Shown: positions 1,995 through 53,882 of the stretch, in pieces
Position numbering within the stretch: position 1 is the stretch's first letter
Layout: each line of letters starts with the position of its first letter
Source: Candidatus Omnitrophota bacterium
Lineage (GTDB): Bacteria > Omnitrophota > Gorgyraeia > Gorgyraeales > Gorgyraeaceae
Direction of reading: 5' to 3'
DNA: 64,000 nucleotides
Assembly (NCBI GenBank): GCA_003485765.1
Contig: DNHS01000051.1
Span: 2,314 to 66,313, forward strand
Notes under the pieces: model-generated
Told to the model about the DNA's origin: nothing
The model's database searches: none
What the model saw: the letters and a program-made list of their open reading frames with translations, nothing else
Position numbers and translations under genes: made by a program

Positions 1995-4900
1995 TTTAAC
2001 TCATACCATCTTCCAGGCCCAAGCGGGCCCTCTGCTTTTAAAAAACCTTTATCCATAAGATATCTCAAATCCCGCGCTGCAGTAGGTATTGATATCTTAA
2101 ATAAATCCGCATATTCTTTTCTTGTGATCTTTCCAGTCTCTTTGATGCGCTCCAATAATTGAACCTGTCTTTTGGTAAGCTGCGCGTCTTTGGGTTCTTC
2201 TTGCTTTTTAGCAGAGAACGGTTTTAAACCGTTCTCTACAGAAAGTTTTTCCAAGGCCTTTGTAGGCATTATAATTATCTCTTTTGCAGGTTCAGGCTCT
2301 ATTTTAACTGGCTCAAACTCAGTCGACACTACAATAGGCGCAACCTGCGGTCTTCTTTTTTCTAACCACGCTGCGGCTGTAATATAAAGCGCCGGGATTA
2401 CGAAAAGTGTCAGGAAAGTGCAGACAGTAAGGCCTCCCATTACAGTTATTGCCATAGGAGCTTGAAGCTCAGAACCTTCTCCAAGGCCAAGCGCTAACGG
2501 AAAAAGGCCTAAAACTGTAGTGAATGATGTCATCATTATGGGCCTTAGCCTGTTTGACCCTGCCTGGCTTACTGCTGTAATAAGATCTTTGCCTTCATTT
2601 CTAAGAACGTTTATCTTATCTATCAAGACAATTCCGTTATCTACAACAACTCCGCCGAGCATGATAACACCCAGTATAACCACAACGCTAATAGGCGTAT
2701 GTGTTAAAAACAGCACCCATGCAACGCCTATTAAAGATAAAGGCAGGGTAAACATAATAATAAACGGCTGCCAGAATGATTCAAATTCGCTCGCCATAAT
2801 CATATACACCAGTAACACTGAAAGGATCAACGCAAACATCAAGCTTAAAAATGATTCTTTCATCTCTTGATTCTCTCCTGCCAGTTGTATCGTAAAATCT
2901 TTTTCAACTTGTCTTGCGGCCTGCTTTTTGATATCAGCGTGGCTAGCCATTACAGAATCTATTGCTTTATTAGCGTCGTCTATTACTTTATTCAAGGCTC
3001 TTCCTGTGACATTCGCAGTCATCATGATTACTCTTTGCTGGTCCAATCTTTTTATTTCGCTTGGGCCTACGCCGTGTGAAATATAAGCAACCTCTGAGAG
3101 CGGGACATCTATTCCTAATGGCGAATGCACTAATATGCTTCTTATGCTTGAAAGCTTTTTCCTATCCTCAGGCCTAAGCCTTACTTTTATATTTATCTCT
3201 CTTCCCTCTTCTTTAAACTTTGTAGCAGTAACTCCCTTAATAGCGATATGAGCTGCCTGAGATATAGAGGCCACTGAAAGATTATATAAAGCAGCTTTAT
3301 CTTTAATAATATTCACTTTTGTTTCTGGCGCAGGGGACGCAAGGCTCGTTCTTATGCCATATACGCCAGGTATCTTAGCCAGCCCAAAATGAAGTTCTTC
3401 ATAAAGCTTTTTTATAAAATTAAGATTGTAGCCTTTTATCTCTATCACTATAGGAGCGCTGCCCATCAATGCGCTCTTAAAAATACTTTCCTGTAAGATA
3501 TATTCTACTTCCGCGCCTTCTAGATTCTCTTTATCCAGTTCTTTTTTTAGATTCTGAATTATTTCAGCAGTAGCAAACTTGCCCTTCTCTTTGCCTTTTT
3601 TAAGATTAACTATGATATTCGCCTGATGCGAACCAAGGGTCTCAATCATGTCTCCCGCGCCTTTTTCTTTGCTGGAGCCAATAGTAACTGCTACGCTATA
3701 GACGTCCTTATTATTTAAAAGTTTTTCTTCTATCTTTCTAACGCTGGAATCTGTTATCTCAAGCTTTGTGCCTGTTGGTAAATTAACTTTCATAACAAAT
3801 TCGCGCTGATCTATTTTTGGCATAAACTCTTTATTAAGAAACCGAAATATAATCATGCTGAATAAGAATAAAACAAGAGCTCCAAGTATTATCAGCTTTT
3901 TATTTTTCAGCGCAATCGGCAGAGACTTGCCATATACAGTTCCCATCCATTTAACTAATTTAAACTCTGAACCTACGGCCATAGGCGCTTCTTCGCCAGA
4001 GCCGGGCTTCTTCTTCCTGCTACCTATAGTCACAAACAAAGGGATTAACGCTAAAGACACATACAAAGAAGCCATAAGAGAATACGTAACAGTTATGGCG
4101 ACTTCTTTAAAAAGCTGTCCAGCAATGCCTGTAACAAATATCATAGGTAAAAATACAACTACTGTTGTCATGACTGAGCCCCATATAGGGCTCTCAACCT
4201 CATTTGCGCCAATCCTCGCAGCCTCTTTTAATTCTTTCCCGCTCTGAATATGATTTGATATATTTTCAATAACTACAATCCCTGCGTCTACAAGCATGCC
4301 TATACCCAACGCAAGCCCGCCTAGAGAAAGCATATTGAGCGTTATGCCGCTAAAATACATAAGGGTAAATGTAATCATTATTGAAATAGGGATAGACATA
4401 GCAACTATCAGGGATGGTTTTAATTTCTTTAAAAATAACCACAAAACCAGGAACGCTAAAAGTCCGCCCTGCCACGCAGCGTCTCCAACATCTCTAATTG
4501 ACTTTCTGATAAAAATAGACTGATCATACACTATATTTACATTTATGCCTTCATGCAGGTCCTTTTTTATGTCATTAAGCCGCTTCTTGATTTTGTCCGC
4601 CACTTGCAATGTATTAGAGCCTGCCTGTTTTAAAATAGCTACAGATATATTTTCCTTCCCATTAAACCTGGAGATAGAGGCGCGCTCCTGGAATGTATCT
4701 TTTATTTCTGCGATATCTCTAAGGTATACAAGCCTCGCCCTCTCTTCTTTTTTCTTTTGAGCCTCCAGGTTTTCTAAAGCAGGCCTCTGATTTTCAGGTT
4801 CGTCAGTCCCTACGACTGTATCCTTTATCTGAGAGATTATTTCAAATTCCCCTATGGTGCGTATAAGATATTCGTAAAAATGCTCCTCTATGGTGCCTGC

Positions 4901-14842: not shown

Positions 14843-14884
14843 AAACAACTTTACAAATTGACAATGTCAATTTGTAAAGTTGTT
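14843..14884. repeat. Copy 1 of the roughly 40-bp palindromic element family (AACAACTTTACAAATTGACAATGTCAATTTGTAAAGTTGTT).
   Basis: It is a near-perfect dyad. Related copies are at 32337-32491, 47110-47150, 53082-53123 and 53864-53900. It lies between the 5' side of tRNA-Leu and the 3' end of the acyl-CoA ligase gene. Confidence 0.7.
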
Positions 14885-19430: not shown

Positions 19431-20309
19431 CTAGCTCGCCTTATTTTTATGCTCTTCTTTCTTCAATGGCAATATTCCCGCCATTTCGCCAATCACGTTC
19501 ACCAATTCCGTATTCGCTGGAATCACAATCTTCGCGTTATTGGCTAAAGATTTCTCCACTGCCTCAAGTTTACGCAATACCTGGGCATTGCCGATAAAAT
19601 ACTTTTCCGCTGCTTCGTTTAACAGGCGGATTGCCTCTGCCTCGCCCTCTGCTTCCAGAATTCTAGCCTGCCTGAAACCTTCTGCTTTTTTAATCTCCGC
19701 TCTTTTCTGGCCGTCGGCTGCGGTTTCCGTGGCAGTAGCAAAATCCACTGCTGCGATTTTTTCATTTTCCGCCTTAACCACCTTGTTCATTGTTTCCTGC
19801 ACATCCTTTGGCGGATCAATCTCTTTTAATTCTGTGCGCACAATTTCAATACCCCAGCTCGAAGTCTCCTCCATTAAAGTTTTATGCAGCTCCGCATTAA
19901 TCTTGCCCCGCTCGCTATTTGCAGATTTTAAAGTCAGAGTGCCTATAATATTCCTCAAGGTAGTCCTGGCCAGGTTTACAATCTGGTATTGATAATTAAA
20001 AACATTGTACTGGCAGCCTTTGACGCTTTCCTGATCTGCCTTCACTTTAAAATATATCTGGGCATCCACCTTGGCATTAAGATTATCGTTGGTGATAATC
20101 TCCTGAGGGTCAGCATCCACCATTTTTTCGGTAATGTTTATCTGGTACATCTTATCTATTCCTGGGATAATCCAGTTAAAGCCGGCATTAGCAAAAGTAC
20201 GGTATTTTCCTAATCTCTCAATTAACCCGCGATGAGTAGGCCTGACAATCCTTATCCCTGCAAAAAATATCACAATCACAGCCATACCAAGTAAATAAAA
20301 AATATTCAC
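19431..20309 (-). CDS. SPFH/band-7 (stomatin/prohibitin/HflKC-like) membrane protein. A GTG start is likely.
   Basis: An N-terminal TM helix is followed by the SPFH core (IERLGKYRTFANAGFNWIIPGIDKMYQINI...QIYFKV) and a C-terminal coiled coil. An AAGGAGG RBS sits upstream of the GTG. Confidence 0.85.
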   Translation of the reverse strand: MNIFYLLGMAVIVIFFAGIRIVRPTHRGLIERLGKYRTFANAGFNWIIPGIDKMYQINITEKMVDADPQEIITNDNLNAKVDAQIYFKVKADQESVKGCQYNVFNYQYQIVNLARTTLRNIIGTLTLKSANSERGKINAELHKTLMEETSSWGIEIVRTELKEIDPPKDVQETMNKVVKAENEKIAAVDFATATETAADGQKRAEIKKAEGFRQARILEAEGEAEAIRLLNEAAEKYFIGNAQVLRKLEAVEKSLANNAKIVIPANTELVNVIGEMAGILPLKKEEHKNKAS

Positions 20310-20424
20310 CTTGCTCCTCCTTTTTTTAAAGCATTATTAAAACAACCTTTAAGCAGACTAACTATATTATTATACTACCCCCTATTAACAAATCAAGCAG
20401 CAAGAAGCAGCGCTGGGAATCCGG

Positions 20425-21522
20425 TTATATTTTTTGCACTGATAGGCTGCTCGTTCTATTTTCGCCATGTTTTTGGCTCCACTTCTCATACACTTCTTTT
20501 TGTATACGCGCTTGACGACATAATTCTGACGACGTCGTCAAGAAAGAACCTGTTTCAAAATAAGTGTAGGAAGGGCAATAACTACAATAAGAAAGCGATG
20601 GACACCCCCTGCAGTGCTTTCTATCTCGCATACGTGATGCCCTTAAGCTCTTGAATAACTTATTATCACACCATATACGAATGAATGAGGCGCGCTTCAG
20701 GCTATTCCCATTGTTAAATCTCAATCGCACACACGGATTTAATTGGCCGTAAGGGGTTATGTTGCTTACCCTTCTTCCTGCGCCGCACAATGGTAGATTT
20801 GGGTCAATGTTCAAAAGTTTGTTCGAAGATCTCATAGGCTGGTGACGATATAGCCCATCTTCTATATAATGTTTCATCTGCAAATCACTCAGTGCATGAT
20901 GTAATGGTCCTGTACTCGCATCATCGCAAGGGAAAATACGATATAATCCCTTGGAATCAAGAAACTGCGCTTTAAGCGTATGCTTTACAAATTGCCGCAA
21001 CTTCCACAGTTCATGCACATTATATTGTAATACAGTGGTCTTAACCAGTACATTTACTCCCATCTCAATCAATTTTGCAATGGCATTTATAGTTTTAGCG
21101 AATGAACCTTGCATCCGGGTAACCTTCTCATGGGTATTCTTAAAGCCATAAAGGCTAATTTCAACAGCGCTTGGAACTATCTTTCTAATTTTTATAGCAG
21201 CTCTCTTATCTATTAAGGTACCGTTTGTAAATATTCGAATGTCAAAATCTAAGCTACGGGCGTGTTCAAGAATTTCAAAAATATCCTTTCGAAGAAATGG
21301 TTCTCCTCCGGTGAATATCAAATGTAAGCATCCCGCATTCTTGAGTTGCTTCAAATATGTTACAATTTCTCCTGTGGTTAGCTCAGCTGTTTTTTTTCGC
21401 ACAATATAACAATGAATACAATGCATATTACATTGATAGGTAAGCTCAAAATGGCAAGAAATTGGGAATTGTCTGTTATGGACAGCTGCTATGAAATCTT
21501 TAGCAGTTTTTATGGGGGCCAT
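20425..21522 (-). CDS. Radical SAM enzyme with a C-terminal SPASM domain (peptide-modifying maturase type).
   Basis: CNMHCIHCY is the CxxxCxxC radical-SAM cluster motif. The C-terminal cysteine-rich SPASM region is CGAGRRV...CVRL...CRGCPSLSYCSYCPSY. Confidence 0.85.
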   Translation of the reverse strand: MAPIKTAKDFIAAVHNRQFPISCHFELTYQCNMHCIHCYIVRKKTAELTTGEIVTYLKQLKNAGCLHLIFTGGEPFLRKDIFEILEHARSLDFDIRIFTNGTLIDKRAAIKIRKIVPSAVEISLYGFKNTHEKVTRMQGSFAKTINAIAKLIEMGVNVLVKTTVLQYNVHELWKLRQFVKHTLKAQFLDSKGLYRIFPCDDASTGPLHHALSDLQMKHYIEDGLYRHQPMRSSNKLLNIDPNLPLCGAGRRVSNITPYGQLNPCVRLRFNNGNSLKRASFIRIWCDNKLFKSLRASRMRDRKHCRGCPSLSYCSYCPSYTYFETGSFLTTSSELCRQARIQKEVYEKWSQKHGENRTSSLSVQKI

Positions 21523-30202: not shown

Positions 30203-30406
30203 TTATTTATAAATCGTTATGCATAGATCAGGGCATATAATTGCGCAAAAAGAGCACCCTGAGCATCCGTCTTTTTCTATAAATCCAACAGGATACACGC
30301 CTTTTTTATTGAGCGACTTGGATTGTTTTATATGGCCTTTTGGACAATATAAAATACAAAGCCCGCAGCCTTTACATTTTTCTATATCAATCTTTATCTT
30401 AGGCAT
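30203..30406 (-). CDS. 4Fe-4S ferredoxin-type delta subunit of the 2-oxoacid:ferredoxin oxidoreductase.
   Basis: Two cysteine cluster motifs are present: CKGCGLCILYCP and CSGCSFCAIICP. Confidence 0.85.
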   Translation of the reverse strand: MPKIKIDIEKCKGCGLCILYCPKGHIKQSKSLNKKGVYPVGFIEKDGCSGCSFCAIICPDLCITIYK

Positions 30407-32315
30407 AGTTATTTTTTATAGTTTCTGCTATTTTTTTAGAGGATAACCCATACTTATCTAATAATAAAGCCCTGTCCCCATGTTCAATAAATTTATCAGG
30501 CAAGGCTATATTTTTAATTATAATATCTTTCTTTATTTTATCAATGATTAATTCCAAAACGCCTGAACCAAACCCTCCTTCAAGAACGCCTTCCTCTATT
30601 GTAAACAATCTGCCTGTCTTAAAAACTGACTGCGCTATTAATTCTATGTCCATGGGCTTTATAAATCTCGCATTTATGACTTCGCAGTTTATGCCTTCGT
30701 CCATTAAAAAAGATGCTGCCTCCAACGCAATATTAGACATATAACCAATATTTACTATTGTAGCGTCTTTGCCTTTTTTTAATAGCTCTCCTTTGCCTAA
30801 AGTTATAGGAGTTCTCGACTCGTCCGCCAATGCCGTAATAGCGGACTTGCTCGAACAATACTTGTAGCTTGCGCCGCGCGGATATCTTATTGCAACAGGG
30901 CCTTTATCATAAGAAACAGCCCAGCTAAACATATTATTCAATTCTTCTTCATTTCTTGGAGCCATAGACACAATATTCGGCAAATGCCTTATATAACTCA
31001 TGTCAAATGTTCCGTGATGCGTAGGCCCGTCTTCTCCCACAAGGCCTGCCCTATCAAGCATTAAAACTACATTCAAATTCTGGAGGCACACATCATGGAA
31101 CAACTGGTCATAAGAACGCTGTAAAAAAGTAGAATATATGGCCACCACGGGTTTAAAACCAGCCCTTGCCAAGCCCGCTGCAAACCCCACAGCATGCTGT
31201 TCAGCCATGCCTACGTCAAAAAATCTATTAGGAAAAAGATTCGCAAATTTATCAAGGCCTGTGCCTTCCGGCATTGCAGCTGTTATAGCTACTATCCTTT
31301 TATTCTCTTTAGCTATTTCTACTATTTTATTGCCAAATGCCTTTGTAAAACCTTCTTCAGGCGTAATATCTTTCGCTAGAGCTATTTTCTCGCCTGTATT
31401 CACATTAAAGCTAGATATGCCGTGAAATTTTTCAGGCCCTTTTTCTGCAAAACTATAGCCTTTTCCTTTTTTTGTAACCACATGCAGCAGAATAGGCTCA
31501 TCCAGGTTTACAATATTTTTCATGGTATCTATAACCGTAGTCACGTCATTTCCGTCAATCGGCCCAAAATACCTGAACCCAAGTTCTTCAAAAAGCATTC
31601 CAGGAACAAGAAGATTTTTAAGCCCTTCTTCTAACCTTCTTGCTGAACGTATAACGCTGAAACCAAAGCGAGGGACTTTTGAAAGAAGTCCCTCAATATC
31701 TTTTCTTATCCTGTTATATGCAGGCGCTGTAATAATTCTATTCAAATATTTACTCAACGCCCCAACACTTTTGGATATACTCATCTCATTATCATTCAGG
31801 ATAACAAGCATGTTTTTATGCAAATGGCCTGCGTGATTTAAGGCCTCCAATGCCATCCCTCCTCCAAGAGACGCGTCTCCTATAACTGCCACAACTTTAT
31901 AATTTTTATGCTCTATATCCCTCGCCGCAGCCATACCGAGCGCTGTAGAAATAGAAGTTGAGCCGTGGCCTGTGGTAAATACATCATACTCGCTTTCATA
32001 TTTATTCGGAAACCCGCTAATGCCTCCTGCTTTACGAAGCGTATTGAATCTGTCTTTTCTACCCGTTAAAATCTTGTGGGCATACGCCTGATGCCCCACA
32101 TCCCATATGATAATATCTTCAGGCGCGTTTAAACAATAATGAATGCCTATTATAAGCTCGACTGCCCCAAGGCTTGACGCTAAGTGCCCACCCGAAGAAG
32201 CCACATTGTTTATAATAACCTCTCGTATCTCCTGCGCTAAAATAGGTAATTTATCTACGCTGAGTTTTTTTAAATCTAATGGGCTATTTATACTATCCAA
32301 CAATCTCTCTGCCAT
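30399..32315 (-). CDS. dxs: 1-deoxy-D-xylulose-5-phosphate synthase.
   Basis: The sequence carries GHLASSLGAVELIIGIHY, DVGHQAYAHKILTGR and TPP/transketolase-like motifs throughout. Confidence 0.95.
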   Translation of the reverse strand: MAERLLDSINSPLDLKKLSVDKLPILAQEIREVIINNVASSGGHLASSLGAVELIIGIHYCLNAPEDIIIWDVGHQAYAHKILTGRKDRFNTLRKAGGISGFPNKYESEYDVFTTGHGSTSISTALGMAAARDIEHKNYKVVAVIGDASLGGGMALEALNHAGHLHKNMLVILNDNEMSISKSVGALSKYLNRIITAPAYNRIRKDIEGLLSKVPRFGFSVIRSARRLEEGLKNLLVPGMLFEELGFRYFGPIDGNDVTTVIDTMKNIVNLDEPILLHVVTKKGKGYSFAEKGPEKFHGISSFNVNTGEKIALAKDITPEEGFTKAFGNKIVEIAKENKRIVAITAAMPEGTGLDKFANLFPNRFFDVGMAEQHAVGFAAGLARAGFKPVVAIYSTFLQRSYDQLFHDVCLQNLNVVLMLDRAGLVGEDGPTHHGTFDMSYIRHLPNIVSMAPRNEEELNNMFSWAVSYDKGPVAIRYPRGASYKYCSSKSAITALADESRTPITLGKGELLKKGKDATIVNIGYMSNIALEAASFLMDEGINCEVINARFIKPMDIELIAQSVFKTGRLFTIEEGVLEGGFGSGVLELIIDKIKKDIIIKNIALPDKFIEHGDRALLLDKYGLSSKKIAETIKNNYA

Positions 32316-32336
32316 ATCCTAATCCTAATCCAATTC

Positions 32337-32491
32337 AAACAACTTTACAAAATGACATTCAGACTGTGTTACAATCGGTAGCCGCAGGCTTTAGCCTGCG
32401 ATATGTTGCGCAACCTAAAGGTTGCGGCTACCATATATAGGCACCGATGAGGATTACAACACAGTCTGAATGTCAAAATGTAAAGTTGTTT
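32337..32491. repeat. Expanded composite copy of the palindromic element: 35-bp inverted arms flanking an 85-bp GC-rich nested-hairpin core.
   Basis: The arms are AAACAACTTTACAAAATGACATTCAGACTGTGTT and its near-perfect reverse complement. The core contains GGTAGCCGC...GCGGCTACC enclosing the hairpins GCAGGC-TTTA-GCCTGC and GCAACC-TAAA-GGTTGC. The right arm supplies the last 5 codons and the stop of ispA. Confidence 0.7.
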
Positions 32492-33288
32492 AGCATCAAA
32501 TCGCCTAATTGTGCTAACTTATCTGCTTTTTTGCCAAAAATCTTTAGATAGCTTTTTGCTTTGTTTGCTAAAGCTCTGGCTTTTTCTTTTGTGAGATATT
32601 CGCCATATAGTTTTACATATCCGTCTTTATCCTTTAAATCATCAAATAGCTGAAATGCAAGGCCGATATCTCTTCCGAAATTTCCCAAAGCATTTATTTC
32701 CAGCTTACTTGCGCCTTTAATAATCCCGCCTGATTTAACTGCAACTTCAAACAGCACTGCTGTCTTCTTTAAATTAATATATTCTATCTCTGCCCTCTGC
32801 CCTCTGCCCTCTGCCCTTTTTTTTAAAATATCCACAACCTGTCCGCCTATTGTACCGCGAGTCCCAACTGCTTTTGATATCTCTTTTATTGCCTTTATGC
32901 TGCCTGATTCTGCTATCACCTGAAATGCCAGAGTCAGAAGTCCGTCCCCTGCTAGAAGCGCTATATCTTCTCCGTATTTTTTATGGCATGTTTTTTTGCC
33001 GCGCCTGAAATTATCATCATCCATACATGGCATATCATCGTGCACAAGGGTATAGGAATGCGCTAATTCTATGCCGCACGCAACAGGTATTATTGAGTTA
33101 CCTTTTCCTCCGCATGCCTCAAACCCTGCAATAGCAAATATAGGCCTTATTCTTTTGCCTCCTGGAAATACTGAATACCTCATGGCCCTGTGTATAATCT
33201 GAGGCTTCAGCGAACATGAAGGAAGATATCTATCCAAAGCCCTATCTATTATCTTCTTTTTATCTAATATATACTTTTTAATATCCAT
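32473..33288 (-). CDS. ispA: Polyprenyl synthetase (farnesyl-diphosphate synthase / geranyltranstransferase).
   Basis: The first and second aspartate-rich motifs are LVHDDMPCMDDD and FQLFDDLKD. A (CTCTGCC)x4 tandem 7-mer lies in the CDS. Confidence 0.9.
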   Translation of the reverse strand: MDIKKYILDKKKIIDRALDRYLPSCSLKPQIIHRAMRYSVFPGGKRIRPIFAIAGFEACGGKGNSIIPVACGIELAHSYTLVHDDMPCMDDDNFRRGKKTCHKKYGEDIALLAGDGLLTLAFQVIAESGSIKAIKEISKAVGTRGTIGGQVVDILKKRAEGRGQRAEIEYINLKKTAVLFEVAVKSGGIIKGASKLEINALGNFGRDIGLAFQLFDDLKDKDGYVKLYGEYLTKEKARALANKAKSYLKIFGKKADKLAQLGDLMLNNFTF

Positions 33289-46676: not shown

Positions 46677-47114
46677 TTATTTAAATGCTTTTAATATTCT
46701 TACTGCGAATATAGCAGCGTTTTTAGCGCCTGCTTTACCTATAGCCATACAAGCAACAGGAACGCCTCCGGGCATCTGGACTGTTGATAAAAGTGAGTCT
46801 AAGCCTTGCAATGATTTGGTTTCTATTGGCACGCCTATAACAGGCAAACTAGTATGAGAACTTACAACGCCGGCTAGAGCTGCAGCCATCCCAGCCCCGC
46901 ATATTAGAATCTTTATGCCTCTTTTCTCTGCTATCTTAGTGTATTTACGCACTGCGTCAGGATTCCTGTGCGCTGAAAGCACATTTATCTCATAAGGAAT
47001 TTTATTTTCTTTCAATATCTTTTCTGTCTCAACCATTGTCTCAGCGTCTGAAGCGCTTCCCATCAATATCCCTACCAAAATTTTCTTGTTTTTAACCATG
47101 CCCCCTCCCAACAA
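46677..47114 (-). CDS. purE: N5-carboxyaminoimidazole ribonucleotide mutase. The real ATG is probably at 47099.
   Basis: [16 protein letters not shown]...SAHRNPD matches purE. The ORF-track start is a TTG inside the palindromic element; the GGGAGGGGG RBS precedes the ATG at 47099. Confidence 0.9.
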
Positions 47115-47150
47115 CTTTACAAATTAACAATGTTAGTTTGTAAAGTTGTT
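47110..47150. repeat. Copy 3 of the palindromic element (AACAACTTTACAAATTAACAATGTTAGTTTGTAAAGTTGTT).
   Basis: It lies immediately upstream of the purE start. It also encodes the last 10 codons ([12 protein letters not shown]) and the stop of purD. Confidence 0.7.
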
Positions 47151-48418
47151 TGCTTGATTGCTCTATCGCCAATGTCTTTTCTATATTGCATACCTTCGAA
47201 TTTTATATGCTCTATTGCCTTATACGCATTGAGTTTAGCTGATTTAATATCCTTCCCAAGGCTCGTTACCCCAAGCACCCTGCCGCCATTTGTAAGGATC
47301 TTTCCGTTTTCATTCTTTGTGCCTGCGTGGAATACAATTATATCTTTTATTTTTTTTGCCTCTTCCAGCCCGAATATCTCTTTATTTTTTTCATACTCAT
47401 CCGGATATCCTTTTGAAGCGCATACCACGGATATACAGGGAGATTTATCCCATTTAACATCTATTTTATCAAGCGTTCCATCTACGCAGGCCATCATAAT
47501 ATCCGCAAGATCTGATTTTAATCTCGGCAATATCGCCTGCGTCTCAGGATCCCCGAACCTCACATTAAATTCTAAAACCATAGGCCCATTTTTAGTTATC
47601 ATTAAACCTGCGTATAAAACGCCTTTATAAACTTTGCCCTCTTTTTTAAGGCCTTCTACCACAGGCCTGAAAACATTTTTTATAATTTCTTCCAGCATAT
47701 CTTTTGTAACTACAGGCGCAGGCGAATAAGCCCCCATGCCGCCTGTATTAGGGCCCTTATCTTTGTCAAAAATCCTTTTATGGTCCTGGGAGGATTCTAA
47801 AGGCACGATGGTTTTCCCATCTGTAAAAACCAGCATAGAAGCCTCTTCGCCTTCCAGGCAATCTTCCAGAATGATTCTATTTCCGCTATCTCCAAAAATC
47901 CTTTCTACCATTATAGAATCTATTACCTTTAATCCTTCTTCTATTGTCTTTGGTATTATCACGCCTTTACCGGCTGCCAGGCCGTCTGCTTTTATTACAA
48001 TGGGTATACCTTTTTCATTCAAATATTTTTTTGCGCCGTTAGAATTATCGAAAACCTTAAATCCCGCCGTAGCTAGGCCGAACTTTTTCATTACATTTTT
48101 AGAAAAAACTTTACTGCCTTCTAACATTGCAACGTCTTTAAAAGGCCCGAATGCCTTTAATCCGTTTTCATTGAAGATATCCACTATGCCTTTTACTAAA
48201 GGCGCTTCCGGGCCTACCACAGTCAAATCTATCTTATTATTTTTTGCGAAATCTAAAAGCTTGGGAACATCATCTGGTTTTACATCAACTAATTCCGCAA
48301 TCTCTTTTATACCGCTATTTCCAGGAGCGCAGAATATCTTTTTCACTTTTTTACTCTGGGATAATTTCCACACTATAGCATGTTCCCTTCCCCCAGAGCC
48401 GATAACCAAGATTTTCAT
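47117..48418 (-). CDS. purD: Phosphoribosylamine-glycine ligase.
   Basis: [19 protein letters not shown] is the purD N-terminus. The ATP-grasp motifs are present. Confidence 0.95.
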
Positions 48419-50207: not shown

Positions 50208-53086
50208 GCTTCTTTTAATTTATCCAAGCTTGTATCCACTATTTTCTTGCCGCTAAGCCCATAAATCTTTAAATCTTTTTTGCCCGAAACTTGGCCTATT
50301 AATCCAATGGAAATACCTTTCATTAAATTCTCAAATTTATTTTTATCTTGTTTTTTAACTTCAGCAATAAATCTTGTATTTGATTCTGAAAATAATATTA
50401 TGCTGTCTCTTTTCGCTTTTGAACTTTTAGCTTCATAAGGCGCTTCTTTAAGCTCTGCCTCTATGCCAAATCCTCCGCTGAAAGCCATCTCAGCCAATGC
50501 GCAAGCTATGCCGCCCTCTGATAAGTCATGGCAAGCCCTTAATAACCCTAGCCTGGTTGCCTCGCTTATTCTATTAAAAATCTTTAGGCCTTTTTTAGCA
50601 TCCACTGTAGGCGCATTATTGCCCACGCAATTATTTATAAGATTATAATGAGAGCCTCCCATTTCATCCTTTGTCTCGCCTATAATGTATAAAAGATTAC
50701 CTTTTTCTTTCAGATCCATTGTAATAGCCTTTGTTACATCATCCATTACTGATATTGCTGAAATTAAAAGCGTACATGGTATCGCAATAGATTCGCCGTG
50801 CACAGAATATTCATTATTAAGGCTGTCCTTGCCGGAAATAAATGGGACGCCGTATGTCTTTGCAATATCATAACAGCCGAAACTCGCCCTTACTAAACTC
50901 CCAAGCCTGTCAGGCTTATCAGTATTGCCCCAGCAAAAATTATCTAAAAGCGCGGTCCTATTTAAAGACCCGCCCACTGCTATCACCTGGCGAAGCGCTT
51001 CATCTATCGAGGAAGCAGCCATCCAGTATGGGTCTATAAATCCGAACCTGGGATTTATCCCGTTTGAGATTATAATACCTTTCTTAGAATTAAACTTTGG
51101 CCTTATGATACTGGCGTCTCCCGGCCCGTCATTTTCTATGCCCACCAAAGGTTTCAAAACACTTTGGCCCTGCACCTCATGGTCATACTGCCTTATGACC
51201 CATTCCTTGCTGCAGACATTCCAGCTTGAAAGAATCTTTAATAAATCCTGAGTGAAATCTTTTTTGTCTTTTGCATCACATTCTCTGTGGCTAGGCTTTG
51301 ACCACACTGCTTTTCGTTCAAACCTCGGAATTCCACCATGCAAAAATTCCATATCCATGTCGCATACCACATTCCCGTTATATCTTAATTTAAGCCTTTT
51401 ATTTGAAGTAAAACATCCTATCACAACTGCTTCGACATCCTCTTTCTTGAAAATATCCATCAATTCTTTCAAATTTTCCCTGGGAACAGAAAGAACCATT
51501 CTTTCCTGAGCTTCTGATATCCATATCTCTGTATAACTTAGGCCCTGATATTTTAAAGGCGCTTTTTCCAAATCAACTTCTGCGCCAAGGTCCTCGCCCA
51601 TCTCTCCTACAGCGCTTGAAAAACCTCCTGCCCCGCAGTCAGTTACAGCTGTGTATAAATTTTTGTCGCGGCCTTTTAGAAGAGTATCTGTAAGCTTTTT
51701 TTCCGTAATCGGGTTTCCTATCTGAACTGCGCCGCCTGATACAGTCTCAGACTCATGAGTAAGCTCTCCTGAAGAAAATGTAGCGCCGTGAATCCCATCC
51801 CTTCCTGTGCGGCCGCCTACAGCCACAATCAAATCTCCGCATTTCGCGGCTTTAAATGATTTATCCTTGGGCATTATGCCCACTGTGCCGCAATACACTA
51901 AAGGGTTTCCGATATAACGTTCGTCAAAAAGCACAGCGCCATTTGCAGTAGGTATGCCCATGCGGTTGCCATAATCTCTTACTCCGCTTACAACGCCTTT
52001 CATTATGCGCTTTGGATGCAGCATGCCCTTAGGCACATTTTTATGCGGCGTATCAGGCAGGCCGAAACAAAATACATCTGTGTTCATAATAGGCTTTGCG
52101 CCTAATCCTACTCCCAATATATCCCTTATAACGCCTCCTATGCCTGTCCCGGCTCCTCCGTAAGGTTCAAGCGCAGAAGGATGGTTATGCGTTTCCACCT
52201 TAAAACAGATATTGTCGTCCTCGTCAAATCTAATAACCCCTGCATTATCCTTAAACACTGACACACACCATGGTTTTTTCAGTTCACTCGTAACTTTCAT
52301 TATTGTGTTTTTAAGCAGGTTGTCGATTATCTTTCTCTTCCCATCTTCCTCATATTCTATAACTCCGCGGAATGTCTTATGGCCGCAATGTTCTGACCAT
52401 GTCTGGGCAATTGTTTCAAGCTCGCAATCAGTAGGATTCCTGCCTAATTTTTTAAAATGGTTTTTTATCTGGGTCATTTCCTTTAGATTTAAAAACAACT
52501 GGCCGTCCTTGCTAATCTTTGTCAATCTCTTGTCATCTGCGCCAAGCAGGTTTACTGTTACCAATTTAAATTTATACCCATTACTACGCTCTATGCGCTT
52601 TGCGCTATGCTCTTTTACCACATGCTGTATAACTTTATTATAGAGCAGCTTTTCGCATATATTCCTGAAATCATTTTCTGTGATCTTCCCTTCTATAAAA
52701 TATTTTTTTTCTGTCCTGAGAGATTTTACTCCATAAATCCCCATATCTTTTATTGCTTTTCTCGCGCTTTCTTCTACAGGATCCATCACGCCTGGATTAT
52801 ACGCAATCTCCACAACCCTTCCCTTTGCCCTCTGCCCCGCCAGGCCCTCTGCCCATAATAAGTATTCTTCAGTTATAGAGTCTACCAGCAATTCCCCGGC
52901 TATCCTCTTAATATCAGATTCAGTGATGTCTCCGGAAATAATAAAGACCTGGCTAACATTAACTTTCTTCACGCCGCTAATGCCCAGATCTGATATATCT
53001 TTTTTAACCCCGTTTCCTAAAGGGTCAAAAACACCTTTTCTATTCTTTATCTCTATCTTCCATTCCATGCTATTCATCCTCAACAA
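50183..53086 (-). CDS. purL: Fused PurS-PurS-PurL (FGAM synthase II with two N-terminal PurS-like modules). The real start is probably MNSMEW or MEWK, a few codons in.
   Basis: The two PurS-like segments are IEIKNRKGVFDPLGNGV... and VEIAYNPGVMDPVEESARKAI.... The PurL core then follows, including HNHPSALEPYGGAGTGIGGVIRD. The ORF-track start is a TTG inside a palindromic element. Confidence 0.9.
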   Translation of the reverse strand: MLRMNSMEWKIEIKNRKGVFDPLGNGVKKDISDLGISGVKKVNVSQVFIISGDITESDIKRIAGELLVDSITEEYLLWAEGLAGQRAKGRVVEIAYNPGVMDPVEESARKAIKDMGIYGVKSLRTEKKYFIEGKITENDFRNICEKLLYNKVIQHVVKEHSAKRIERSNGYKFKLVTVNLLGADDKRLTKISKDGQLFLNLKEMTQIKNHFKKLGRNPTDCELETIAQTWSEHCGHKTFRGVIEYEEDGKRKIIDNLLKNTIMKVTSELKKPWCVSVFKDNAGVIRFDEDDNICFKVETHNHPSALEPYGGAGTGIGGVIRDILGVGLGAKPIMNTDVFCFGLPDTPHKNVPKGMLHPKRIMKGVVSGVRDYGNRMGIPTANGAVLFDERYIGNPLVYCGTVGIMPKDKSFKAAKCGDLIVAVGGRTGRDGIHGATFSSGELTHESETVSGGAVQIGNPITEKKLTDTLLKGRDKNLYTAVTDCGAGGFSSAVGEMGEDLGAEVDLEKAPLKYQGLSYTEIWISEAQERMVLSVPRENLKELMDIFKKEDVEAVVIGCFTSNKRLKLRYNGNVVCDMDMEFLHGGIPRFERKAVWSKPSHRECDAKDKKDFTQDLLKILSSWNVCSKEWVIRQYDHEVQGQSVLKPLVGIENDGPGDASIIRPKFNSKKGIIISNGINPRFGFIDPYWMAASSIDEALRQVIAVGGSLNRTALLDNFCWGNTDKPDRLGSLVRASFGCYDIAKTYGVPFISGKDSLNNEYSVHGESIAIPCTLLISAISVMDDVTKAITMDLKEKGNLLYIIGETKDEMGGSHYNLINNCVGNNAPTVDAKKGLKIFNRISEATRLGLLRACHDLSEGGIACALAEMAFSGGFGIEAELKEAPYEAKSSKAKRDSIILFSESNTRFIAEVKKQDKNKFENLMKGISIGLIGQVSGKKDLKIYGLSGKKIVDTSLDKLKEAWQKPLRW

Positions 53087-53123
53087 CTTGACATTTTAAC
53101 AATGTTAGAGTGTCAAGTTGTTT
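53082..53123. repeat. Copy 4 of the palindromic element (AACAACTTGACATTTTAACAATGTTAGAGTGTCAAGTTGTTT).
   Basis: It lies directly upstream of, and overlaps, the purSL start region. It sits between purC and purSL. Confidence 0.7.
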
Positions 53124-53135
53124 GAAATCGCAAAA

Positions 53136-53882
53136 CTATGTCTTTATTCTTTTAAGAACTTCCTGGTAGGCTTCCTCAATCTTTCCTAAATCCCGTCTGA
53201 AACGGTCCTTGTCCAGCTTCTCATTTGTAACCTTATCCCACAACCTGCATGTATCTGGGGAGATTTCGTCTCCGAGCAATATTTTTCCTTTATGCCTGCC
53301 GAATTCCAGCTTGAAATCAACTAGTTTCAAACTGACCTTGTCAAAAAAATCCTTCATGATCTGGTTCACGCTGAACGAATAATCCTTTATCTTCTTCATT
53401 TCCTGAGGAGTTGCAAGTTTAAGGATATCTATGTGATAATCGTTTATCAACGGGTCATGAAGGCTGTCATCTTTATAATGATATTCCAGGACAGGCGTTT
53501 TCAAAACAATGCCTTCTTCTATCCCGAGCATTTTTGACAGCCCGCCCGCTGATATATTTCTTATAGTTACTTCTACCATGATTATCTTTAATCTCTTAAC
53601 AAGCATATCCCTGTCGCTTAATTTTTTTACAAAATGCGTCGGGATGCCTTTTGATTCCAGAAGTTGAAAAATAGCCGAAGATATCTCGTTATTTATAACC
53701 CCTTTCCCCTTTATAGTGCCTCTCTTTGTGGCGTCAAAAGCAGTTGCATCGTCTTTAAACTCCTGTATCACTAAATCAGGGTTATCTGTATCGTATAAAA
53801 TCTTTGCTTTTCCCTCGTATATCTTATTCCCTTTTTCCATAACCTTCCTTCCCTCTCTAAATATAAGTTGACACTGTAACAA
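53136..53882 (-). CDS. purC: SAICAR synthetase. The real start is probably MEKGNK at about 53840.
   Basis: [29 protein letters not shown] matches the purC N-terminus. Confidence 0.9.

What the first reader, a model, noticed from the sequence alone, without database searches (positions are those of the whole stretch)
32337..32491. Expanded composite copy of the palindromic element between dxs and ispA: 35-bp inverted arms around an 85-bp GC-rich triple-hairpin core
The arms are AAACAACTTTACAAAATGACATTCAGACTGTGTT and its near-perfect complement. They differ by one AAA versus TTT block. They flank GGTAGCCGC[GCAGGC-TTTA-GCCTGC]...[GCAACC-TAAA-GGTTGC]GCGGCTACC, a GC-rich structured insert in a roughly 35% GC genome. 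This looks like a MITE-like or mobile structured RNA element inserted into, or derived from, the same palindrome family. The right arm provides the ispA C-terminus (NNFTF) and stop. It may encode a small structured ncRNA or act as an attenuator between ispA and dxs.
Basis: seen in the sequence. Interest (0 to 1): 0.5.

Follow-up and report, generated by a model that had tools for sequence, protein, structure and literature searches.

The report
Nested mobile palindrome in ispA–dxs spacer
A 113-bp hairpin-forming piece of selfish DNA (two REP-like hairpins between inverted repeats) sits in the tip of an older 43-bp palindrome between two isoprenoid genes of an uncultured Omnitrophota bacterium; it is a new example of a known kind of bacterial repeat, not a dedicated regulatory RNA.

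Summary
The feature is real. Window 32337-32491 is a 155-bp near-perfect inverted repeat in the 157-bp spacer between ispA and dxs (minus strand). It has three nested layers.

1. The outer 21 bp on each side belong to a resident palindrome family, with three solo copies in the window.
2. A 113-bp insert (32358-32470) sits at the apex, with 19-bp terminal inverted repeats (TTCAGACTGTGTYRYAATC).
3. The GC-rich core is a head-to-head pair of GTAG-tagged REP-like hairpins.

Four relatives (IspA 77-88% identical) carry only the short palindrome at the orthologous site, so the insert is a lineage-specific gain. Near-identical cores occur in at least seven other contigs at unrelated loci, in both orientations relative to transcription. 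The same repeats flank different cargo in three other phyla. The REP unit occurs singly in phage contigs. Stem variants keep pairing through compensatory changes.

No Rfam family, terminator or promoter was found. The best reading is a non-autonomous REPIN/BIME-like mobile palindrome. Its effect on the operon mRNA (a hairpin of about -83 kcal/mol that includes the ispA stop codon) is inferred, not shown. The mobilising enzyme was not identified. This is a new member of a known kind, of moderate-to-low interest.

The parts
32337..32357 (.). Left outer arm (AAACAACTTTACAAAATGACA) of the resident 43-bp palindrome family, which served as the target
   Evidence: Matches the arms of the solo palindromes at 14844, 47110 and 53082. 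It is also present without the insert at the orthologous site in L006, L041, L004 and L038.
32358..32376 (+). Left terminal inverted repeat of the 113-bp insert (TTCAGACTGTGTTACAATC)
   Evidence: The same repeat bounds elements in L015, L010, L019, L022, L024, L025 and L028.
32377..32400 (+). REP-like unit A: tag GGTAGC, 7-bp stem CGCAGGC/GCCTGCG, loop TTTA
   Evidence: Covariance model hit of 38.5 bits. Exact copies occur in L023, L024, L034 and as singlets in L029-L033 and L035.
32401..32408 (.). 8-nt linker between the two REP-like units (ATATGTTG)
   Evidence: The linker is variable: absent in L034, and 16-20 nt with a third small hairpin in L022, L023, L028 and L015.
32409..32432 (-). REP-like unit B, inverted: GGTAGC, stem CGCAACC/GGTTGCG, loop TTTA on the minus strand
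   Evidence: Covariance model hit of 39.8 bits. It differs from unit A by compensatory changes in the stem.
32433..32451 (.). 19-nt unpaired spacer (ATATATAGGCACCGATGAG) that makes the insert asymmetric
   Evidence: A related spacer occupies the same position in L076.
32452..32470 (-). Right terminal inverted repeat of the insert (GATTACAACACAGTCTGAA), matching the left repeat at 17 of 19 positions
32471..32491 (.). Right outer arm of the resident palindrome. On the minus strand it encodes the last five ispA codons (NNFTF) and the stop at 32473-32475.
32473..33288 (-). ispA-type polyprenyl diphosphate synthase (271 aa), the upstream gene of the spacer
   Evidence: Homologues are 257-317 aa, so the protein is not truncated.
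30399..32315 (-). dxs (638 aa), the downstream gene. Its start lies 21 nt after the palindrome, preceded by GGATTAGGATTAGGAT.
14844..14884 (.). Solo member of the resident palindrome family, between a gene end (14908) and a tRNA gene (14773-14690), all on the minus strand
47110..47150 (.). Solo member of the palindrome family. It overlaps the 3' end and stop of ORF 47117-48418 (minus) and ends just before the ribosome-binding site and ATG of the next gene.
53082..53122 (.). Solo member of the palindrome family, lying between the stop of ORF 53136-53882 (minus) and the next start

Best explanation
The feature is a three-layer nested palindromic repeat produced by insertion of a non-autonomous mobile element.

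Layer 1 is a resident 41-43-bp palindrome: AAACAACTTTACA, 3-4 variable nt, GACA, A or T, TGTC, 3-4 variable nt, TGTAAAGTTGTTT. This lineage carries it at or just after the stop codon of upstream genes and before the next gene in the same direction.

Layer 2 is a 113-bp insert at the exact apex of that palindrome. It is bounded by 19-bp terminal inverted repeats (TTCAGACTGTGTYRYAATC).

Layer 3, the cargo, is a head-to-head heterodimer of GTAG-tagged REP-like hairpins, that is, a BIME/REPIN-like unit.

Shown:
- The anatomy of the three layers.
- The empty orthologous sites in relatives.
- Copies of the core at unrelated loci and in both orientations.
- Compensatory stem variation among the REP-like units.

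Inferred:
- The element moves as a folded single-stranded DNA hairpin, helped in trans by a HUH (RAYT/TnpA-REP-like) enzyme, or spreads by gene conversion between palindrome copies.
- It prefers hairpin apexes as targets.
- Because it is co-transcribed within xseA-xseB-ispA-dxs, it raises the intercistronic RNA hairpin from about -17 to -26 kcal/mol to about -83 kcal/mol. The ispA stop codon lies inside the stem. This probably changes mRNA processing, 3'-end protection, or termination and coupling between ispA and dxs, as a by-product rather than a designed function.
For: Anatomy.

Empty sites:
- L006 and L041 (IspA 85-87% identical) have AAACAACTTTACACTTGTGACA-T-TGTCAGAAGTGTAAAGTTGTTT in a 62-bp spacer.
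- L004 (88%) has a decayed copy, and L038 (77%) a variant.
- The short palindrome is therefore ancestral and the insert derived.

A second, non-orthologous case: L025, a tRNA cluster, shows the same junction TTTGACA|TTCAGACTGTGT in the same palindrome family.

Core elsewhere:
- L076, in an lptC-lptB spacer, is 55/56 identical.
- L024 is 54/56 identical.
- L034, L022, L023 and L028 also carry it.
- L015 has the same GGTAGCCGC tag with different stems.

Terminal repeats with other cargo: found in Brocadiaceae, Thermodesulfobacteriota and Atribacter assemblies.

Orientation relative to transcription:
- Unit A comes first in L076, L024 and L023.
- Unit B comes first in the window, L022 and L028.

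Stem covariation: 98% of cells paired, and 4 of 7 pairs changed on both sides. No shuffle out of 500 reached the observed pairing or covariation score.

Literature fit:
- REPs are 20-50-nt palindromes preceded by GTAG, often in inverted pairs (PMC8266576).
- HH dimers and heterodimers are described (PMC3733652).
- REP dimers nested inside longer palindromes are known in Anabaena variabilis, Halothiobacillus neapolitanus and Thermomicrobium roseum (PMC3733652).

Fold energies.
Against: - No transposase was identified. There is no RAYT-like sequence in the window or in 758 kb of fetched loci. This is a weak test, because RAYT genes are usually single-copy.
- Copy number in this genome is unknown. 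There is one dimer in 64 kb and none in the loci fetched from relatives, whereas classic REP families have hundreds of copies.
- The terminal repeats are not a standard part of REPs, and in L076 they have diverged while the core is conserved.
- Target-site duplication is ambiguous. None is evident in the window, and L076 has a possible CTA on each side.
- No expression data are available, so every RNA-level effect is inference.
Confidence: 0.75

Rival explanations
1. It is a classical cut-or-copy MITE, mobilised by a DDE transposase of an unidentified insertion sequence that shares the TGTCATTCAGACTGTGT termini. The REP-like dimer is only passenger sequence.
For: The 19-bp terminal inverted repeats are conserved across several phyla and carry different internal cargo. 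L076 has TG...CA-type ends flanked by CTA on both sides, a possible 3-bp target duplication. Contigs break at the element, as in L013 and L025.
Against: There is no unambiguous target-site duplication at the window junction when compared with the empty sites. No full-length element with these termini was found. The core is better conserved than the terminal repeats: window and L076 share 55/56 of the core but have diverged repeats. That is the reverse of what is expected if the termini are the functional part.
Confidence: 0.25
2. The insert reached this site by homologous recombination or gene conversion from another, already composite copy of the palindrome family, using the 21-bp outer arms as homology. 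No transposition into this site took place.
For: The outer arms are shared family sequence. L025 shows a composite with the identical junction at another locus. The absence of a target-site duplication fits this route.
Against: Homology of 21 bp per side is very short for recombination. It also does not explain how the first composite arose, or why elements with the same terminal repeats sit in other sequence contexts (L015, L010, L022, L028).
Confidence: 0.2
3. It is a dedicated structured RNA, either a small ncRNA gene or a cis-acting attenuator or processing signal selected to tune dxs relative to ispA.
For: The fold is very stable on the transcribed strand. The hairpin stems co-vary. The orthologous spacer always carries some palindrome, of different families in L036 and L040, which suggests that a hairpin at this position is tolerated or favoured.
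Against: The insert is absent from the orthologous spacer of the closest relatives. Near-identical cores sit at unrelated loci (tRNA cluster, lptC-lptB, dnaK-dnaJ, upstream of a 907-aa ORF that I read as valS (not checked), phage contigs) and in both orientations. There is no Rfam family, no terminator-like site and no promoter-like site in the element.
Confidence: 0.07
4. The composite is ancestral at this site, and the relatives lost the inner 113 bp by precise deletion, for example replication slippage across the hairpin.
For: Long hairpins are deletion-prone, and the two states alone do not give polarity.
Against: Several lineages at different distances (IspA 88, 87, 85 and 77% identical) all have the short form with an intact GACA-T-TGTC apex. 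This would need several independent precise deletions. Solo palindromes with the same apex exist elsewhere in the window.
Confidence: 0.05

Closest known systems
GTAG-tagged REP sequences arranged as inverted pairs (BIME, REPIN, 'HH heterodimers'), thought to be mobilised by RAYT/TnpA-REP HUH enzymes (PMC3733652, PMC8266576, PMC3116915)
   Same: Each unit has an unpaired GTAG-containing tag (GGTAGC), a perfect 7-bp GC-rich stem and a 4-nt loop. Two units lie inverted with the GTAG ends outside and a short variable linker between them. The partners differ by compensatory stem changes. The location is extragenic, between genes in the same direction and close to the upstream stop codon.
   Different: Copy number in this genome is unknown and low locally (one dimer in 64 kb). 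No RAYT gene was seen. The dimer carries an extra pair of 19-bp terminal inverted repeats. The identical 24-nt unit also occurs in phage contigs and in contigs from other, unidentified organisms, whereas REPIN-RAYT systems are described as mostly vertically inherited (bioRxiv 10.1101/2022.05.22.493013, abstract).
REP dimers nested inside longer palindromes: Anabaena variabilis GTAG-15, Halothiobacillus neapolitanus CGTC-1 in 41-bp palindromes, Thermomicrobium roseum GTAG-23 (PMC3733652, section read)
   Same: A REP dimer sits in the centre of a longer palindromic sequence. As in T. roseum, the target palindrome also exists on its own in many copies.
   Different: Here there are two enclosing layers: terminal repeats shared across phyla, then a lineage-specific palindrome. 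An empty orthologous site documents the gain directly.
Correia repeat-enclosed elements of Neisseria and similar co-transcribed MITEs (PMC2649163; review PMC10969869)
   Same: A non-coding element of about 100-150 bp with terminal inverted repeats, inserted in intergenic spacers and co-transcribed. It is predicted to form a long RNA hairpin that could be an RNase III substrate and alter the expression of neighbouring genes.
   Different: There is no sequence relation. No TA target duplication is present, and no conserved outward promoter or IHF site was found. Processing by RNase III is untested here.
Insertion sequences that target REP hairpins: IS1397 and ISKpn1 into REP loops, and IS110-family elements such as IS621 into REPs
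   Same: Insertion occurs into the central part of a resident extragenic palindrome.
   Different: Those are autonomous elements that encode transposases. This insert is 113 bp and non-coding.

Membership tests
GTAG-tagged REP / BIME / REPIN | A short palindrome (stem 6-13 bp, loop 2-4 nt; 20-50 nt overall) preceded by an unpaired conserved tetranucleotide, usually GTAG | tested here: met
   The units are GGTAGC-CGCAGGC-TTTA-GCCTGCG (32377-32400, plus) and GGTAGC-CGCAACC-TTTA-GGTTGCG (32432-32409, minus). The definition comes from PMC3733652 and PMC8266576.
GTAG-tagged REP / BIME / REPIN | Two units in inverted orientation separated by a variable linker | tested here: met
   The GTAG ends lie outside (the 'HH' arrangement). 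The linker is 8 nt in the window, absent in L034, and 16-20 nt in L022, L023, L028 and L015.
GTAG-tagged REP / BIME / REPIN | Sub-families that differ by complementary (compensatory) stem changes | tested here: met
   Seven distinct units give 98% paired cells, with 4 of 7 pairs changed on both sides. Slid controls pair at 25-33%. The sample is small and the variants are related, so this is supportive rather than conclusive.
GTAG-tagged REP / BIME / REPIN | High copy number (tens to hundreds) spread over the host genome, mostly extragenic | tested here: inconclusive
   Only one dimer is present in the 64-kb window, and none in the loci fetched from relatives. The location is extragenic. The whole genome could not be read.
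GTAG-tagged REP / BIME / REPIN | A cognate RAYT/TnpA-REP gene in the genome, typically flanked by the REPs (a REPtron) | not testable with these tools
   tblastn of the E. coli TnpA-REP sequence (checked against PDB entry 4ER8) found nothing significant in 758 kb held. A HUH/Tyr motif scan also found none. A single-copy gene would probably lie outside the sequence available.
MITE (DDE-type miniature inverted-repeat element) | Small and non-coding, with terminal inverted repeats | tested here: met
   The insert is 113 bp, and its 19-bp terminal repeats match at 17 of 19 positions. The only ORF across it is a spurious 53-aa frame with a single database relative.
MITE (DDE-type miniature inverted-repeat element) | A target-site duplication flanking the element | tested here: inconclusive
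   The filled and empty sites differ by replacement of, or insertion next to, the single apex base. Any 'AT' repeat cannot be told apart from the palindrome itself. L076 shows CTA on both sides.
MITE (DDE-type miniature inverted-repeat element) | Presence/absence polymorphism and multiple copies | tested here: met
   Empty orthologous sites exist in L004, L006, L041 and L038. Copies occur in L015, L022, L023, L024, L025, L028 and L076.
MITE (DDE-type miniature inverted-repeat element) | A parent insertion sequence with the same termini that encodes the transposase | tested here: inconclusive
   None was found in the loci held or in viral contigs.
Cis-regulatory RNA (attenuator, riboswitch) or small RNA gene | Conserved at the orthologous position upstream of the regulated gene, in a fixed orientation | tested here: not met
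   The insert is absent from orthologous spacers. Both orientations relative to transcription occur among copies.
Cis-regulatory RNA (attenuator, riboswitch) or small RNA gene | Its own promoter and/or an intrinsic terminator, or a match to a curated RNA family | tested here: not met
   No terminator-like site was found, and no promoter-like site lies in the element. There is no Rfam match at gathering threshold or at E up to 10.
Correia-like co-transcribed MITE acting through RNase III | Cleavage or protection of the transcript hairpin by RNase III, with an effect on flanking gene expression | not testable with these tools
   Only a predicted stem of about 38 bp and -83 kcal/mol on the mRNA strand is available.

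The most novel reading that the evidence does not exclude
The 24-nt GTAG-tagged hairpin unit (GGTAGCCGCAGGCTTTAGCCTGCG) and the elements built from it could form a horizontally spreading system that targets hairpin apexes. The unit is identical in this Omnitrophota genome, in contigs from unidentified organisms, and in Mu-like and other phage contigs of 49-60% GC. Terminal repeats of the TGTCATT type enclose different cargo in at least four phyla. Palindromes of different families replace one another at the same ispA-dxs spacer. If true, REP/REPIN-like DNA would be moved between phyla, perhaps by phage-borne HUH enzymes, by repeated insertion into the tips of existing hairpins. That would contrast with the prevailing picture of vertically inherited, lineage-bound REPIN-RAYT pairs.
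Probability: 0.15. Interest if true: 0.6.

Novelty: new member of a known kind. Interest (0 to 1): 0.33.

Why it matters
The locus gives a clean, datable example, with filled and empty orthologous sites, of a REP-dimer-type element entering the apex of another palindrome. It comes from Omnitrophota, a phylum I have not seen described as carrying such repeats (that absence is from my own reading and two text searches, not a systematic check). It also warns annotators that the ispA C-terminus and stop codon here are supplied by repeat DNA. The ispA-dxs spacer is a hot spot where unrelated palindromes succeed one another. The identical hairpin unit in phage contigs is a testable lead on how such repeats spread. 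It does not reveal a new regulatory RNA or a new mechanism.

Tried and rejected
- Rfam at gathering and permissive thresholds, on the window and on six other loci with copies: only tRNAs and two chance snoRNA-like matches.
- Hammerhead idea, from CGATGAG in the 19-nt spacer: that spacer is not conserved in L015, L022 or L028, so I dropped it.
- Promoter idea, from the extended -10-like TGTGTTACAAT in the terminal repeats: the key second position of the hexamer varies between A and G among copies, and the scan found no promoter in the element.
- attC (integron) and CRISPR-repeat resemblance: the end motifs do not fit. This was rejected by inspection only.
- Text search for the sequence motifs in the paper library: only unrelated primers.
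- blastn of the insert against INPHARED phages and PLSDB plasmids: no match.
- Viral scans for paired or single terminal repeats: none, or chance matches inside a coding sequence.
- Viral scan for GGTAGCCGC...GCGGCTACC dimers: apart from L034, none carried this dimer. L069 and L071 have other GTAG-type hairpins.
- Protein search with the spurious 53-aa ORF: a single hit, which did yield L076.
- MAFFT alignments of whole cores and of the orthologous spacers misplaced gaps. I used direct sequence comparison and a gap-free unit alignment instead.
- RAYT search by motif and by tblastn: negative but uninformative.

Full report
**Observation**

The region 32337-32491 is a real inverted repeat far beyond chance. 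The arms are 32337-32376 and 32452-32491: 40 nt, 88% complementary, 75 nt apart. The inner 18-mer AACACAGTCTGAATGTCA occurs only at these two places in the window, against 0.01 expected. The mRNA-sense strand folds into one long hairpin of -85.1 kcal/mol (z = -12.5), and the other strand into one of -80.2 kcal/mol.

The flanking ORFs on the minus strand are dxs (30399-32315) and an ispA-type polyprenyl synthase (32473-33288). They lie downstream of xseB and xseA. The ispA ORF runs 19 nt into the right arm, which supplies NNFTF and the TGA stop.

- The arms are up to 40 nt, not 35.
- Window GC is 36-43%, not 35%.
- The minimum-energy fold of the core is a single stem rather than separate hairpins.

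The same 155 nt are present without change in three assemblies from different samples (L001, L002, L009). This rules out an assembly artefact.

**Source organism**

The best IspA homologues (85-88% identical) come from metagenome-assembled genomes labelled Candidatus Omnitrophota/Omnitrophica. Identical copies come from an anammox-reactor metagenome. IspA homologues in this clade are 257-317 aa, so the 271-aa protein is full length.

**Anatomy: three nested layers**

Layer 1: the outer 21 nt of each arm (AAACAACTTTACAAAATGACA and its complement) match a family of 41-43-bp palindromes.
- Three solo copies lie in the window, at 14844-14884, 47110-47150 and 53082-53122.
- Each solo copy lies between minus-strand genes in the same direction. 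It overlaps or closely follows the upstream stop codon and ends a few nucleotides before the next ribosome-binding site or a tRNA gene.

Layer 2: inside the apex lies a 113-nt insert (32358-32470) with its own 19-nt terminal inverted repeats, TTCAGACTGTGTTACAATC and GATTACAACACAGTCTGAA. They match at 17 of 19 positions.

Layer 3: the core is two inverted units of one design.
- Unit A is GGTAGC-CGCAGGC-TTTA-GCCTGCG (32377-32400, plus strand).
- Unit B is GGTAGC-CGCAACC-TTTA-GGTTGCG (32432-32409, minus strand).
- An 8-nt linker separates them, and a 19-nt unpaired spacer follows on one side.

**Is it an insertion?**

I fetched the orthologous ispA-dxs spacer from relatives.
- L006 and L041 (IspA 85-87% identical) have a 62-bp spacer holding only AAACAACTTTACACTTGTGACA-T-TGTCAGAAGTGTAAAGTTGTTT.
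- L004 (88%) has a decayed copy of the same palindrome.
- L038 (77%) has a variant of it.

The short palindrome is therefore the older state, and the 113 nt are a gain on the window's lineage, placed exactly between GACA and TGTC. A 20-nt loss upstream of the palindrome explains why ispA now terminates inside the arm.

Two other relatives carry different palindromes at this spacer. L040 has a different AT-rich palindrome, and L036 has a perfect GC-rich palindrome with 27-nt arms. The site is a hot spot for palindromes.

**Is the core unique?**

No. A scan of one genome per species for the terminal repeat and one metagenome scan for terminal repeat plus GGTAGCCGC returned related elements.
- L015 (Omnitrophota) has the same terminal repeats and the same GGTAGCCGC...GCGGCTACC frame, but entirely different hairpin stems.
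- L024 has a core 54/56 identical to the window's, with the left terminal repeat only. It lies upstream of a 907-aa ORF that I read as valS (not checked with a family search).
- L022, L023 and L028 carry the same two hairpins plus a third small hairpin in the linker.
- L025 is a tRNA-cluster contig carrying the same host palindrome family. It ends in a composite with the identical junction TTTGACA|TTCAGACTGTGT.
- L076, found through a spurious ORF, has a core 55/56 identical between lptC and lptB. Its right spacer is related, but its terminal repeats have diverged (TGAGACTGTTGAAAAA).
- Unit A alone occurs exactly in seven IMG/VR contigs. In L029, L030, L032 and L035 it lies just upstream of a ribosome-binding site and ATG, in sense orientation. 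One of these contigs has a Mu gp29-like portal protein.
- L034 has the dimer without terminal repeats.

The terminal repeats also bound other cargo in assemblies labelled Brocadiaceae, Thermodesulfobacteriota and Atribacter.

Among full copies, unit A comes first in the mRNA sense in L076, L024 and L023. Unit B comes first in the window, L022 and L028. There is no preferred orientation.

**Structure conservation**

Seven distinct 24-nt units align without gaps. For the 7-bp stem:
- 98% of cells are standard pairs.
- Four of the seven pairs show changes on both sides.
- No shuffle out of 500 reaches the observed pairing or covariation score.
- Slid controls pair at 25-33%.

A covariance model built from these units finds only the two units in the 64-kb window and none in the relatives' loci. 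It also recovers extra singlets in phage contigs. The sample is small and the variants share ancestry. I take this as support that hairpin formation is maintained, not as proof of an RNA function.

**Comparison with known families**

After working out the anatomy, I compared the units with published definitions.
[quoted passage not shown] They are frequently paired in inverse orientation with a variable linker (PMC8266576).
- Di Nocera and colleagues describe stems of 6-13 bp, loops of 2-4 nt, 'HH' dimers with the GTAG ends outside, heterodimers with different stems, and a preference for spacers between genes in the same direction, close to the upstream stop (PMC3733652).
- They also report REP dimers inserted inside longer palindromes in Anabaena variabilis, Halothiobacillus neapolitanus and Thermomicrobium roseum. 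In T. roseum, free target palindromes also occur.

The core meets the sequence and structure criteria. Two defining features could not be settled: copy number in the genome and a cognate RAYT gene. The E. coli TnpA-REP sequence, which I verified against PDB entry 4ER8, has no significant tblastn match in the 758 kb held, including the window. A HUH/Tyr motif scan was also empty. Such genes are usually single-copy, so this says little.

The MITE criteria (small, non-coding, terminal inverted repeats, presence/absence polymorphism) are met. Target-site duplication is ambiguous and no parent insertion sequence was found.

**Mechanism**

Shown: a lineage-specific gain at a hairpin apex of a non-coding, multi-locus, multi-genome palindromic element.

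Inferred:
- The element moves as a folded single strand with a HUH-type enzyme supplied in trans. The GTAG-tagged hairpins, the absence of a clear duplication and the indifference to orientation fit this. Alternatively it moves with a DDE transposase that recognises the terminal repeats, or it is copied between palindrome family members by gene conversion.
- The element lies inside the xseA-xseB-ispA-dxs transcription unit. The intercistronic RNA hairpin rises from about -17 kcal/mol (reconstructed empty site) or -26 kcal/mol (L006) to about -83 kcal/mol, and the ispA stop codon lies within the stem.
- By analogy with REPs and Correia elements (PMC3733652; PMC2649163), this could protect the upstream mRNA 3' end, create an RNase III site, or disturb termination and coupling. 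None of this was tested.

**Rejected readings**

A dedicated ncRNA or attenuator is unlikely. The insert is absent from orthologous spacers, copies occur at unrelated loci in both orientations, and there is no Rfam family, no terminator and no promoter in the element. Ancestral presence with precise loss in relatives would need several independent exact deletions.

**Verdict**

The element is a new member of a known kind: REP-dimer or MITE-like nested palindromes. The most interesting open thread is that an identical GTAG hairpin unit occurs in phage contigs and in contigs of other, unidentified organisms, and that the same terminal repeats occur in three other phyla.

Noticed in passing
window 14844-14884, 47110-47150, 53082-53122: A family of 41-43-bp palindromes with conserved outer arms (AAACAACTTTACA ... 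TGTAAAGTTGTTT). Each lies between minus-strand genes in the same direction. The copy at 47110 overlaps the last ~11 codons and the stop of ORF 47117-48418. The family's own function and origin are unknown.
   Followed up: partly
L036 3808-3868; L040 about 3800-3845 (orthologous ispA-dxs spacers): The same spacer holds unrelated palindromes in other relatives. L036 has a perfect GC-rich palindrome with 27-nt arms (-65 kcal/mol), and L040 has a different AT-rich palindrome. Palindromes appear to turn over at a fixed intercistronic site.
   Followed up: partly
L029 4368-4391; L030 2862-2885 and 6680-6703; L032 8563-8586 and 10145-10183; L035 8343-8366; L031, L033: The 24-nt unit GGTAGCCGCAGGCTTTAGCCTGCG, or a near variant, occurs singly in IMG/VR contigs of 49-60% GC. 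One contig has a Mu gp29-like portal. In L029, L030, L032 and L035 the unit lies in sense orientation just upstream of a ribosome-binding site and start codon.
   Followed up: partly
L010 4654-4816; L013 1-75; L019 2735-2880; L022 6600-6740; L023 13960-14020; L028 3960-4060: A second family of nested inverted repeats with termini TGTCATTGCGA...TCGCAATGACA shares the first seven bases with the insert's extended terminus. It is often adjacent to or nested with the insert-type elements, forming mosaic intergenic arrays in several phyla.
   Followed up: no
L034 2559-3605 (ORF) and 3026-3071 (dimer): In this viral contig the REP-like dimer, without terminal repeats, lies inside a 348-aa open reading frame. 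The frame may be spurious, or this may be an intragenic REP.
   Followed up: no
L025 150-340, 620-790, 900-1010: In this tRNA-cluster contig, each tRNA gene is followed by a repeated block of about 100-190 nt (GGATTTGAAGTGAGTCCCGAT...GGCGCCAAA). After one block the 3' end of the tRNA is duplicated. There is no Rfam match apart from the tRNAs.
   Followed up: partly
L003 132-1598 and L004 104-1570, compared with window/L001 NifU (129 aa): The NifU-like gene is 488 aa in the 88%-identity relative, with a faint LAGLIDADG hit between two NifU_N hits. This suggests an intein or homing-endonuclease insertion that is absent from the window's genome.
   Followed up: no
L003 4768-5895: xseA is split into two ORFs (113 and 208 aa) in one assembly of the relative but is intact (375 aa) in L004. 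This is either a frameshift or an assembly error.
   Followed up: no
L003 14038-15678: An IS4-type DDE transposase gene (546 aa) lies downstream of the PilZ gene in the relative. It is absent at the corresponding place in the window, and its ends do not carry the insert's terminal repeat.
   Followed up: partly
window 32316-32336: Directly upstream of the dxs start, the spacer reads GGATTAGGATTAGGAT. This is a short tandem duplication that supplies the AGGA ribosome-binding motif. Relatives have a different sequence here.
   Followed up: no
window 20253-20273 / 20424-20444: A separate 21-nt inverted repeat (86% complementary) with 150 nt between the arms. It is unrelated in sequence to the palindrome family.
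   Followed up: no
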